DNA of 38,724 bases from a virus (lineage: Duplodnaviria; Caudoviricetes): IMG/VR virus record IMGVR_UViG_3300045285_000084, positions 1 to 38,724 of that record; one strand, written 5' to 3'. Position 1 is the stretch's first letter. Every line of letters begins with the position of its first letter. This document shows positions 6,158 through 7,746 of this stretch, one piece after another. The notes under the pieces were generated by a model that made no database searches, was not told where the DNA came from, and worked only from the letters and a program-made list of their open reading frames with translations. A program made the position numbers and the translations under genes.

Positions 6158-6186
6158 TTGACTTTACAGGCTTGTCATGCTAAATT
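6158..6186 (+). promoter_or_regulatory. Sigma70-type promoter of the accessory cassette
   Basis: TTGACT(6158-63)-17 nt-TAAATT(6181-86) with extended -10 TG at 6178-79. Confidence 0.7.
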
Positions 6187-6220
6187 AATTGCGCAACCAA
6201 CCTTGAGGCGCAGTTTTTTC

Positions 6221-6757
6221 ATGCAAGTAACCAGCGCATACCATTCGCCGGCTTTTGAAGCCGCTGTTAAGAAAGTCGAAGAGGATTTAGAAAGCTCTTT
6301 CGTGGAAGTCAAGCAGGACGTACAAGACACTGCTGTCCGTGTTAACGAGGCAGCGAAAGACGCAACGCCCACGTTTGATAAAGATGCGATGATTGACGAG
6401 CTACAAAAGCAAGTCGTTCAGCTTAAGGCTGGCGAGGTGCTTTGGAAAATAGAGCAAGCTGCTCTGTTTTCTACCGTCAGGACTCAAAACGAGCGCATTG
6501 TCGAGCTTCAACAGCAGATCATTGACCAACAAATTCAGTTCACCAAGGCCCTGGCGGACGTTAATGCTAGGTGCGCTGAGCTTCAAAATCAGTATCTCGA
6601 GTGCAAAACTTATGCTCAGGTATCTGTTGGTATTTCTCTTATTGCTACTGGAGCCGGCCTTATCTCTTCTACCATTGGATGGGCTGGGCTTGTACGAGTG
6701 TTGCAAGGCGGTGTAAAATCTCTTCAAGCTTTGACAGTTGCTAAGGTTACCCTATGA
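6221..6757 (+). CDS. Coiled-coil protein with C-terminal hydrophobic segment (Inc-like, candidate effector)
   Basis: ATG 6221 lies downstream of the promoter (the 6158 TTG is the -35 box); long Gln/Glu heptad region, then VSVGISLIATGAGLISSTIGWAGLVRVL. Confidence 0.65.
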   Translation: MQVTSAYHSPAFEAAVKKVEEDLESSFVEVKQDVQDTAVRVNEAAKDATPTFDKDAMIDELQKQVVQLKAGEVLWKIEQAALFSTVRTQNERIVELQQQIIDQQIQFTKALADVNARCAELQNQYLECKTYAQVSVGISLIATGAGLISSTIGWAGLVRVLQGGVKSLQALTVAKVTL

Positions 6758-7224
6758 GCGGACTTGAGCAGTTGCCTTTCCGTATACTATACGCAGAGAT
6801 AGTGCCAAGAGCCGACATTTACTCATTAATGCGGTTGACTCAGACTTGCAGAACTCTTTATTTCGTCATTCACAAGCATGAGATGTGGCGCGAAGCGGTT
6901 CAAAAGGCTTTCCCGAAAGAGTACGCTAAGCTTTACAGCCAGATGCCGAAAGAACTGCCTTTTTTTAGGATTTTTACTGCCGAATTAAAGCTTAAGTCGT
7001 TGGCAGATAGAAAAGAAATAGTCGATAAAATGAATCTGACTAATCTTTGCATCATAGCCGTCACAACTGACGTGCTGGCATTTTTCGTTATTATACGGCC
7101 GGCTTACTACGGCCTTTCTTATCTAGGCGCCAAAATATACAGCGGCGTTCAAATCACAATAGGCGAGACCGCTACGAAAGTTTTAGGCGCAATGCTAGCA
7201 TCATTAATAACTGATACAAGATAA
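6754..7224 (+). CDS. F-box-like protein with C-terminal hydrophobic segments
   Basis: LEQLPFRILYAEIVPRADIYSLMRLTQTCRTLYFVIHKHEMWR fits the F-box consensus (L..LP..IL..I......L..L...CR.......W); TM-like LCIIAVTTDVLAFFVII. Confidence 0.7.
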   Translation: MSGLEQLPFRILYAEIVPRADIYSLMRLTQTCRTLYFVIHKHEMWREAVQKAFPKEYAKLYSQMPKELPFFRIFTAELKLKSLADRKEIVDKMNLTNLCIIAVTTDVLAFFVIIRPAYYGLSYLGAKIYSGVQITIGETATKVLGAMLASLITDTR

Positions 7225-7236
7225 ATAGGCCCTATA

Positions 7237-7746
7237 ATGAGCATAACAAGCAGATTATACGTTATTGAGCAGACTTTTTCTCGCGAGATAGACCCGCTAC
7301 CCGAAAGCATTTCTGATTTTCCGGAGCCAAAGGACTGGCTGAATATCACGCCTGAAGAAAAAAAAGCCATGCTTGCATGCGTAGAAAGGACTAATGATTG
7401 GGTTAACGGCGTCATGGCCCCTAAACTGGAAGAGATACAGGTCTCTCTTGATGACCTAGACAATATCAGTGCAGAGCTAAAAGAAAGACATGAACGTTTT
7501 AAGCGAGAGCATAAAATAGTCTATGCGCTGGGGGGTGGCATGAAGTTAGCTATTAATTCAGCTTGTGCCGTCATATATAAGGCTAATGAAGTGATGTGTA
7601 CGATACTTTTTACTGAGCGCTCATGGTCAGAGATTGCCCACCGTTTAGTAACGCCGGTTAGTGCGTGCGTGTGTTTTTTTTCTGGTATGGCTGTTGGTAT
7701 AATAGCGCCCACCCTAATCGCTAGGGCAGGCGACAGATTCCGTTAA
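7237..7746 (+). CDS. Coiled-coil protein with C-terminal hydrophobic segments (Inc-like, candidate effector)
   Basis: LEEIQVSLDDLDNISAELKERHERFK coiled coil; hydrophobic LVTPVSACVCFFSGMAVGIIAPTLIA. Confidence 0.65.
   Translation: MSITSRLYVIEQTFSREIDPLPESISDFPEPKDWLNITPEEKKAMLACVERTNDWVNGVMAPKLEEIQVSLDDLDNISAELKERHERFKREHKIVYALGGGMKLAINSACAVIYKANEVMCTILFTERSWSEIAHRLVTPVSACVCFFSGMAVGIIAPTLIARAGDRFR

What the first reader, a model, noticed from the sequence alone, without database searches (positions are those of the whole stretch)
6158..7746. Phage-borne eukaryote-directed effector moron: own promoter, F-box protein and two Inc-like proteins
Seen: three tightly linked genes (6221-6757, 6754-7224, 7237-7746) follow a near-consensus promoter (TTGACT-17-TAAATT with extended -10 TG), 4 nt after the spike gene stop, and end at a convergent gene. 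All three have a soluble domain (coiled coil, F-box, coiled coil) plus a C-terminal hydrophobic region and no Sec signal. Two begin with Ser/Thr-rich N-termini (MQVTSAYHS, MSITSR). Known: F-boxes act through eukaryotic Skp1/SCF and are expanded in amoeba-associated Chlamydiae and Legionella; chlamydial Inc proteins are T3SS substrates with coiled coils and bilobed hydrophobic domains; Wolbachia phage WO carries a eukaryotic association module. Inference: this phage equips an intracellular bacterium to modify its vacuole membrane and host ubiquitination, a phage-bacterium-eukaryote system.
Basis: partly seen in the sequence, partly recalled or inferred. Interest (0 to 1): 0.9.

Follow-up and report, generated by a model that had tools for sequence, protein, structure and literature searches.

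The report
Chlamydial phage's F-box membrane operon
A complete soil phage, whose closest relatives in bacterial genomes sit in chlamydiae, carries three conserved orphan genes with hydrophobic C-termini, one with a weak F-box motif, that are likely exported into the vacuole membrane of the protist housing the bacterium, where they would tamper with its ubiquitin system.

Summary
The three genes are real, tightly linked and under purifying selection (dN/dS 0.07-0.08). The window is a complete circular 38.6-kb myovirus. Its head and tail proteins best match prophage-like elements in Chlamydiota genomes, so the host is probably an environmental chlamydia (no direct link found). Gene 2 has an N-terminal F-box-like motif that beats all 2000 shuffles and aligns to chlamydial F-boxes (HHalign 75%), but it is degenerate and below Pfam's cut-off; Skp1 binding could not be modelled. 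'Inc-like' is only a loose fit: the hydrophobic segments are short or weak, and the N-termini give no clear secretion signal. The promoter match alone is chance-level. However, the leader is conserved, and a hairpin plus U-tract would block read-through while leaving promoter-started RNA open. The cassette is absent from six near-complete relatives, so it is accessory. No integrase was found and GC content is phage-like, so it is not a classic prophage moron. Best reading (0.45): phage-encoded, inclusion-membrane-anchored effectors that work like GogB and AnkB. Rivals: bacterial-membrane exclusion proteins (0.25) and exit or lysis proteins (0.15).

The parts
4112..6154 (+). Upstream 680-aa gene, likely tail fibre or receptor-binding protein (not the baseplate spike)
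   Evidence: No Pfam or PHROG hit. Homologs end the tail gene block in G001 and G003 and occur in chlamydial elements L226, L015, L241 and L239.
6158..6186 (+). Sigma70/sigma66-type promoter-like site TTGACT-17-TAAATT with TG
   Evidence: 9/12 match, chance-level by count. Both hexamers and the TG are identical in relative L001; all 3 substitutions fall in the spacer.
6187..6219 (+). Leader hairpin (8-bp stem 6187-6194/6208-6215) with GAGG at the foot of the 3' arm and a U-tract; predicted terminator and ribosome-site occluder for read-through RNA
   Evidence: Read-through RNA folds at -18.2 kcal/mol (z -2.2); RNA starting at 6192 or 6194 folds at -2.2. 6178-6218 (41 nt) is identical in L001.
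6221..6757 (+). Gene 1, 178 aa: variable N-terminus, long coiled-coil helix (about 54-129), Gly-rich hydrophobic C-terminal hairpin (about 130-165)
   Evidence: dN/dS 0.069; distant homologs P0016-P0018 at 33-38% keep the architecture.
6754..7224 (+). Gene 2, 156 aa: degenerate F-box-like motif (residues about 5-50), hydrophobic segment 94-118 and a weaker one at 134-153
   Evidence: Pfam F-box-like 20.1 bits, below cut-off; 16.4 bits on a chlamydial F-box HMM, 0 of 2000 shuffles as high; HHalign 75%; dN/dS 0.072 overall, 0.033 in the motif.
7237..7746 (+). Gene 3, 169 aa: helical or coiled-coil part, weak hydrophobic lobe 94-127, strong lobe 137-163
   Evidence: dN/dS 0.08; no homolog beyond its own cluster.
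7751..8095 (-). Convergent 114-aa orphan gene closing the cassette
   Evidence: dN/dS 0.019 against L001; found only in L001 among the fetched loci.

Best explanation
The three genes form a conserved accessory operon of a myovirus that likely infects an environmental chlamydia, and their products are likely exported by the bacterium's type III secretion system into the inclusion membrane, where the F-box-like protein is predicted to tether or titrate the protist's Skp1/SCF ligase. SHOWN: the genes, their purifying selection, their absence from six near-complete relatives, an F-box-like motif above chance, and C-terminal hydrophobic segments. INFERRED, in order: (1) a chlamydial host, from the virion-gene relatives; (2) expression from its own host-type promoter, with the leader hairpin stopping read-through from the fibre gene; (3) export, the least supported step; (4) membrane anchoring with the N-terminal domains facing the host cytosol; (5) Skp1 binding by gene 2, which has no obvious substrate-binding domain, so genes 1 and 3 would act as coiled-coil partners or gene 2 as a decoy. 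The benefit would go to the phage, by keeping the vacuole and host cell permissive or easing exit.
For: HOST. All 11 of 11 proteins tested (resolvase, terminase, head, neck, sheath) score higher against chlamydial elements than against 77 other prokaryotic loci, for example portal 55% vs 33% and sheath 61% vs 31%. 11 of 401 Chlamydiota genomes hold the capsid gene, 10 of them at 57-58%. 8 of the 8 fetched among those 10 hold a syntenic neck-tail module. 8 of 73 Parachlamydiaceae genomes match virion genes at DNA level. In the TerL tree the window's group is sister to a clade whose only cellular members are these elements. F-BOX. Top of 61 window proteins on a 30-sequence chlamydial F-box HMM (16.4 bits, next 3.1); 0 of 2000 shuffles reach it. 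HHalign gives 75% over 45 columns, against 0.3% for the control. 11 of 30 chlamydial F-box proteins also start the motif within 9 residues. Parachlamydiaceae F-box families carry type III signals (PMC4209131, passages). LEADER. Conserved, and open only when transcription starts at the promoter. GENE 1. Homologs have variable N-termini, Pro/Ser/Gln-rich in P0017, ahead of a conserved coiled coil and a hydrophobic hairpin of about 35-45 residues.
Against: The F-box is below Pfam's cut-off (20.1-22.7 vs 24.3 bits). It lacks the Glu after LP and the IFxxL leucine, and a non-homolog reached 13.7 bits on the same HMM in a larger search. Only 1 of 30 chlamydial F-box proteins reaches KD19 1.6, so F-box plus membrane anchor has little precedent there. 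Gene 1's hydrophobic stretch is about 35 residues and mild; gene 3's first lobe and gene 2's second lobe are weak and charged. A crude N-terminal classifier (AUC 0.77) put gene 1 with ordinary phage proteins, and genes 2 and 3 at levels that 15-17% of the negatives reach. No homolog in 400 Chlamydiota genomes; the 13 of 200 weak hits to the gene 1 profile include GrpE and other unrelated coiled coils. No related phage outside the window's own lineage has an F-box (0 of 14 records: 4, 10). No cellular genome lies in the window's own 9-row clade, the joining node has SH-aLRT 88 in a quick tree, and one element-bearing genome is labelled Verrucomicrobia.
Confidence: 0.45

Rival explanations
1. 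Bacterium-directed membrane proteins: the trio sits in the chlamydial inner membrane early in infection to exclude superinfecting phages or to hold the cell in its replicative state. The F-box-like motif is a captured, repurposed or coincidental helical segment.
For: Small membrane proteins under their own promoter beside tail fibre genes are typical exclusion cargo (recalled). The predicted early, insulated expression fits. There is no clear secretion signal and the F-box is sub-threshold. Strong purifying selection is unlike a fast-evolving host-interaction gene.
Against: No match to phage families beyond one weak unknown-function hit and none in PADLOC. The motif is N-terminal, resembles chlamydial F-boxes, and is among the most constrained parts of the gene (dN/dS 0.033); bacteria have no Skp1 (established knowledge).
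Confidence: 0.25
2. Exit proteins: a non-canonical lysis or membrane-rupture cassette (holin/spanin-like, or a small multi-part pore) that breaks the bacterial envelope or, after release, the inclusion and host membranes without needing secretion.
For: The position between the fibre gene and the packaging genes is typical of lysis cassettes (recalled). No lysis gene is recognised in the genome; the only 'endolysin' label is a secondary hit of the Dit-like tail protein. Gene 1 homologs give faint hits to MakB (E 0.011), XaxA (E 0.077) and SseD (E 0.018). Phages of intracellular bacteria face two sets of membranes (PMC5062602, passages).
Against: Lysis is essential, yet 0 of 6 near-complete relatives carry the genes. 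The hairpin would insulate them from the upstream fibre transcript. The faint hits are far below the cut-offs and mixed with unrelated coiled coils. No lipobox is seen and no holin or spanin family is hit.
Confidence: 0.15
3. The host is not a chlamydia, or not intracellular. The F-box similarity is chance and the three are ordinary accessory phage membrane proteins.
For: No direct host link: two short DNA hits were not in repeat arrays. TerL identity to chlamydial elements (60-61%) is only slightly above that to other phyla (57%). The promoter count is at chance level.
Against: Portal, sheath, cement and neck proteins are far closer to chlamydial elements. The sister phage G409 shares fibre genes with 8 of those elements at 52-54%. 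The shuffle and profile tests favour a real motif.
Confidence: 0.1

Closest known systems
GogB of Salmonella prophage Gifsy-1
   Same: Phage-encoded, expressed from its own promoter, type III-secreted, binds Skp1 (PMC7380047, passages).
   Different: GogB is a lysogenic-conversion gene with atypical GC (same paper). Here no integrase was found, GC is phage-like, the protein is small with a hydrophobic anchor, and it comes with two membrane partners. No sequence similarity was found or tested directly.
Legionella AnkB
   Same: An F-box effector anchored on the cytosolic face of the vacuole, where it recruits ubiquitinated proteins, also in amoebae (PMC2916131, abstract).
   Different: AnkB is not known to me as phage-borne (recalled), is Dot/Icm-secreted, lipid-anchored and has ankyrin repeats. 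Gene 2 would use a hydrophobic segment and has no recognised substrate-binding domain.
Parachlamydiaceae F-box effector families (NEX1, PEX)
   Same: N-terminal F-box-like motif, likely the same host phylum; representatives carry type III signals (PMC4209131, passages).
   Different: Those fetched here are mostly 200-700 aa and lack a strong hydrophobic segment (29 of 30 below KD19 1.6). No full-length homolog of gene 2 was found in 400 genomes.
Chlamydial Inc proteins
   Same: Small, orphan-like, coiled coil plus hydrophobic hairpin, no signal-peptide-like N-terminus (PMC3048545 and PMC3290821, passages).
   Different: The lobes here are shorter, weaker or charged, and C-terminal. Secretion and location are untested. 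These are phage-encoded.
Eukaryotic association module of Wolbachia phage WO
   Same: A phage of an obligate intracellular bacterium carrying eukaryote-like domains, including ubiquitin-related ones (PMC5062602, passages).
   Different: WO is temperate with large multi-domain genes. This is a 1.5-kb, three-gene cassette, and relatives show no eukaryote-type ubiquitin or repeat domain (0 of 109 representative ORFs).

Membership tests
F-box proteins | Pfam F-box or F-box-like score above the curated cut-off | tested here: not met
   20.1 bits full length, 22.7 for residues 1-60, cut-off 24.3; F-box 14.8 vs 20.5.
F-box proteins | N-terminal LP...(I/L)...C...W motif above chance | tested here: met
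   0 of 2000 shuffles, top of 61 proteins; HHalign 75%, E 2.5e-5. Degenerate at two positions.
F-box proteins | Three-helix fold | tested here: inconclusive
   AlphaFold mean pLDDT 38 from a 2-sequence alignment.
F-box proteins | Binds Skp1 | not tested
Inc proteins | Two transmembrane helices with a loop under 30 aa, or a hydrophobic domain of 40 aa or more | tested here: inconclusive
   Kyte-Doolittle only. Gene 1: about 35 aa, peak 1.67 (homologs about 40 aa, peaks 1.8-2.4). Gene 3: lobes 1.36 and 2.09 with a charged loop. Gene 2: lobes 2.15 and 1.33. No TM predictor available.
Inc proteins | N-terminal type III secretion signal | tested here: inconclusive
   Crude composition test: gene 1 negative-like, genes 2 and 3 mildly positive. 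S/T not enriched in gene 1.
Inc proteins | Located in the inclusion membrane | not testable with these tools
   Needs microscopy.
Inc proteins | Match to the IncA family profile | not testable with these tools
   PF04156 is not in this Pfam copy, so the lack of a hit says nothing.
Prophage morons | Extra genes at a locus that differs among related phages | tested here: met
   Absent from 6 of 6 relatives at 90% completeness or more; other small genes follow the fibres there.
Prophage morons | Own promoter, regulated apart from the phage programme | tested here: inconclusive
   Conserved site and hairpin, chance-level count, no RNA data.
Prophage morons | Carried by an integrating temperate phage | tested here: not met
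   Complete circle with no integrase or ParA hit among 62 ORFs. A carrier or plasmid state is not excluded.
Prophage morons | Base composition unlike the phage (common, not strict) | tested here: not met
   GC 0.43-0.48 and GC3 0.43-0.46, within the range of core genes.
Holins/spanins | Family match, lipobox or N-terminal anchor, linked endolysin | tested here: not met
   No such hit in PHROGs, Pfam or NCBIfam; hydrophobic segments are C-terminal.

The most novel reading that the evidence does not exclude
A non-integrating tailed phage of chlamydiae borrows its host's type III system to build its own three-protein, SCF-recruiting complex on the inclusion membrane, so that a bacterial virus steers a eukaryote's ubiquitin system for its own replication or escape. 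Small Cys-cluster, effector-like orphans elsewhere in this phage group would be further cargo of the same kind.
Probability: 0.3. Interest if true: 0.85.

Novelty: new variant of a known kind. Interest (0 to 1): 0.62.

Why it matters
The chlamydial phages in the papers read here are microviruses, plus phage-like genes on plasmids and islands (PMC5010888, PMC7846284, passages). This is a complete tailed phage in a wider clade tied to Chlamydiota genomes. How phages of intracellular bacteria cope with the vacuole and the host cell is an open question (PMC5062602). Three small genes give a direct test: Skp1 binding and membrane location in amoeba or yeast. A positive result would extend phage-borne F-box effectors from Salmonella lysogens to a likely non-integrating phage of protist symbionts.

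Tried and rejected
Complex prediction of gene 2 with a giant-virus Skp1 stand-in (L223, confirmed as Skp1): tool not available, no result. AlphaFold of gene 2: pLDDT 38, unusable, not fold-searched. Foldseek of the gene 1 model against PDB: 0 matches at E <= 0.001. PDB sequence searches: nothing significant. ESM Atlas: gene 2 best 0.82, chance-level; gene 1 no usable hit. NCBIfam and PADLOC: no hit near a cut-off. Chlamydiota searches: 2 of 400, 2 of 400 and 0 of 400 weak hits for genes 2, 1 and 3, with one genome unscored each time; 13 of 200 weak hits for the gene 1 profile, which included GrpE, a transposase-like protein and other coiled coils, so rejected. Metagenome scan with the gene 1 profile: 0 of 192 candidates. 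Genes 1 and 3 are not paralogs (0.3%). Spacer search: 2 of the short DNA hits checked, no repeat arrays. No RNA holder listed. Misassembly rejected: one contig spans 1-14000, though it may be the source run, and a roughly 89%-identical relative from another study spans the cassette. The capsid scan of named genomes with single-sequence patterns found nothing. The careful tree did not finish; the quick tree was used, with 80 rows drawn from 172 sequences. Literature searches listed no paper on a tailed chlamydial phage with F-box or Inc-like genes; the library lacks most subscription papers and no supplements were read.

Full report
WHAT IS THERE. The window is a whole virus record with a 152-bp terminal repeat, and a public contig joins its end to its start: a circular 38.6-kb genome. 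PHROGs and Pfam make it a myovirus with an E217/Pam3-type baseplate, recombination and O-like replication genes, and no integrase among 62 ORFs. The three ORFs, the promoter-like site and the convergent gene are at the stated places. The upstream gene is a likely tail fibre, not the baseplate spike. The arrangement is not an assembly artefact. L001 carries it at 91-93% amino-acid identity, and run X2, a soil metagenome from another study, has contigs across 4780-6313 and 6298-7872. X2's phage and L001 lack the same downstream gene, so I count them as one lineage.

THE GENES ARE FUNCTIONAL AND ACCESSORY. Against L001, dN/dS is 0.069, 0.072 and 0.080, close to the fibre (0.082) and the resolvase (0.067); GC and GC3 lie in the range of core genes. 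Profiles of the three proteins find nothing in six relatives that are at least 90% complete (G001, G002, G003, G409, G410, G412) or in the chlamydial elements; the best E was 0.03. Among 401 fetched loci only L001's record matched. In G409-G411, which share the window's gene order, unrelated small genes follow the fibres. Gene 2 has only its own 90% cluster among 5.8 billion proteins, gene 3 likewise. Gene 1 has three distant homologs at 33-38% among 1.84 billion representatives, plus an 81% one. All keep a coiled coil followed by a Gly-rich hydrophobic C-terminal stretch, with variable N-termini.

HOST. The best terminase matches in named genomes (60-61%) are a Parachlamydiaceae MAG, an 'uncultured bacterium' and a genome labelled Verrucomicrobia. 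All three carry at least four full-length nucleotide transporters, typical of chlamydiae and some other intracellular bacteria (recalled). The capsid gene occurs in 11 of 401 Chlamydiota genomes. I fetched 9 of them: the 8 from the 57-58% group all show the syntenic neck-tail module, and the ninth is more distant. For 11 of 11 proteins tested, chlamydial elements outscore 77 other prokaryotic loci; those loci were picked by terminase with 10-kb flanks, so distal genes can be out of range. 8 of 73 Parachlamydiaceae genomes match virion genes at 62-76% DNA identity, and none matches the cassette. In a quick TerL tree (80 rows: all at 56% or more, every fourth of the rest, and the window), the window's 9-row clade (SH-aLRT 98) holds only virus records and is sister (88) to a 22-row clade (99) that contains all chlamydial elements. 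Two earlier scan notes also place look-alike capsids in chlamydial elements; they are leads only. I put a chlamydial host at about 0.85. There is no spacer or prophage link for this phage itself.

F-BOX. Pfam F-box-like gives 20.1 bits (E 5.3e-4), under the 24.3 cut-off. On an HMM of 30 F-box matches from five element-bearing chlamydial genomes, gene 2 scores 16.4 bits; the next of 61 window proteins scores 3.1, the best of 2000 shuffles 7.3 and the reversed sequence -0.7. HHalign against 24 of these gives 75% over residues 5-50; gene 3 as control gives 0.3%. Against this: the motif is degenerate, and a non-homologous reading frame reached 13.7 bits in a larger six-frame search. The motif region has 1 non-synonymous against 7 synonymous changes. 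I put a true F-box origin at about 0.7; retained Skp1 binding is untested.

INC-LIKENESS. Incs are defined by two transmembrane helices with a loop under 30 residues, or a hydrophobic domain of 40 or more, plus a type III signal; coiled coils are enriched (PMC3048545, PMC3290821, passages). By hydropathy alone, gene 1 has about 35 mild residues (29 uncharged), gene 3 one strong and one weak charged lobe, and gene 2 one strong and one weak lobe. The gene 1 model shows a helix 54-144, a break at 145-154 and a low-confidence helix 155-176, with no Foldseek match. N-terminal composition is not distinctive. So they may work like Incs, but membership is not shown.

LEADER. The promoter pattern is no more frequent than chance (13 vs 12.8). 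But L001 keeps both hexamers and the TG, has its three substitutions in the spacer, and is identical over 6178-6218. At the neighbours' synonymous divergence that block has a probability near 1e-7 or less, a post hoc figure. Read-through RNA forms a hairpin that closes over the GAGG and precedes a U-tract (-18.2 kcal/mol, z -2.2; weaker in L001, z -0.7, same core stem). RNA starting at 6192-6194 is open (-2.2). I infer that the cassette is translated only from its own promoter. A similar switch is recalled for T4 late genes, where it serves lysis timing, so the timing here is not settled.

MECHANISM. Most likely the host polymerase transcribes the operon, the chlamydial type III system exports the proteins, the hydrophobic hairpins anchor them in the inclusion membrane with the N-termini in the protist cytosol, and gene 2 tethers or titrates Skp1 (0.45). 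Export is the weakest link. Rivals: bacterial inner-membrane exclusion or arrest proteins (0.25), exit or lysis proteins (0.15), a non-chlamydial host with a chance motif (0.10). Relatives show no general eukaryote-directed module: 0 of 14 records outside the window's lineage have an F-box, and none of 109 representative ORFs hit a eukaryote-type ubiquitin or repeat family. A few Cys-cluster orphans are suggestive only.

COMPARISON AND NOVELTY. A phage-borne, self-promoted, type III-secreted Skp1 binder is known: GogB of Gifsy-1 (PMC7380047, passages). A vacuole-anchored F-box is known: AnkB (PMC2916131, abstract). Chlamydial F-box effectors (PMC4209131, passages) and phage WO's module (PMC5062602, passages) are known. 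Chlamydial phages in the papers read are microviruses or plasmid- and island-borne phage genes (PMC5010888, PMC7846284, passages); unclassified viruses predicted to infect Chlamydiales are mentioned in PMC12644861 (passages). PMC11338181 (passages) added nothing on chlamydial phages. Six searches listed no report of a tailed chlamydial phage with such genes; subscription papers and supplements were not seen. Verdict: a new variant of a known kind. The carrier is unusual, the F-box is plausible but sub-threshold, and the function is untested. Interest 0.62.

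Noticed in passing
L226-L231, L233-L234, L237-L241, L015, L018, L019 (G006, G007, G097, G139, G151, G188, G254, G368): Chlamydiota genomes carry a closely similar, syntenic myovirus head-tail module (10 of 401 with capsid at 57-58%). Where seen, it is interrupted by bacterial cargo around the terminase, has variable fibre arrays, no homolog of the window's replication genes in the fetched stretches, and a ParA-like gene next to it in three. 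It may be a phage-plasmid, a degenerate prophage or a gene-transfer-agent-like element.
   Followed up: partly
window 34954-35310 (+): Lone plus-strand 118-aa ORF among leftward genes: Pro/Ser-rich with a Cys-cluster tail, resembling lipid-anchored effectors (recalled likeness). No homolog or family hit, and it overlaps 35201-35587, so it may be spurious.
   Followed up: partly
L252:4454-4759 and L296:219-509: Two related phages carry small orphans with chlamydial-effector-like starts and Cys clusters; no homologs among the loci and no Pfam hit.
   Followed up: partly
window 3821-6154 versus G001/G003 and G409-G411: The fibre block (94-aa gene plus fibre) ends the tail operon in G001-G003 but sits after the replication genes in the window and in G409-G411, which belong to the other TerL subclade: a mobile receptor-binding block.
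   Followed up: partly
P0019 and P0009: A homolog of gene 1 (cluster of P0017, 33% identical) lies on contigs up to 10,723 bp, the same length as the contig of a terminase 93% identical to the window's. This hints at a close relative with a swapped allele; not verified.
   Followed up: partly
whole window: Complete circular genome (152-bp terminal repeat) with a RecT-like gene, an exonuclease, O-like replication genes, a Cro-like HTH and a Phd-like antitoxin (33607-33819), but no recognised integrase, holin or endolysin.
   Followed up: partly
L410:16009-16836 and L406:444-1232: Related phages G412 and G410 encode a TET/JBP oxygenase and a TET-associated glycosyltransferase, suggesting DNA base modification.
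   Followed up: no
window 15228-16037, 18289-18951, 19498-21414, 26521-28521: Cement, head, sheath and baseplate-J proteins cross-match over about 90 residues, a shared inserted domain, also described in earlier notes on related chlamydial elements.
   Followed up: no
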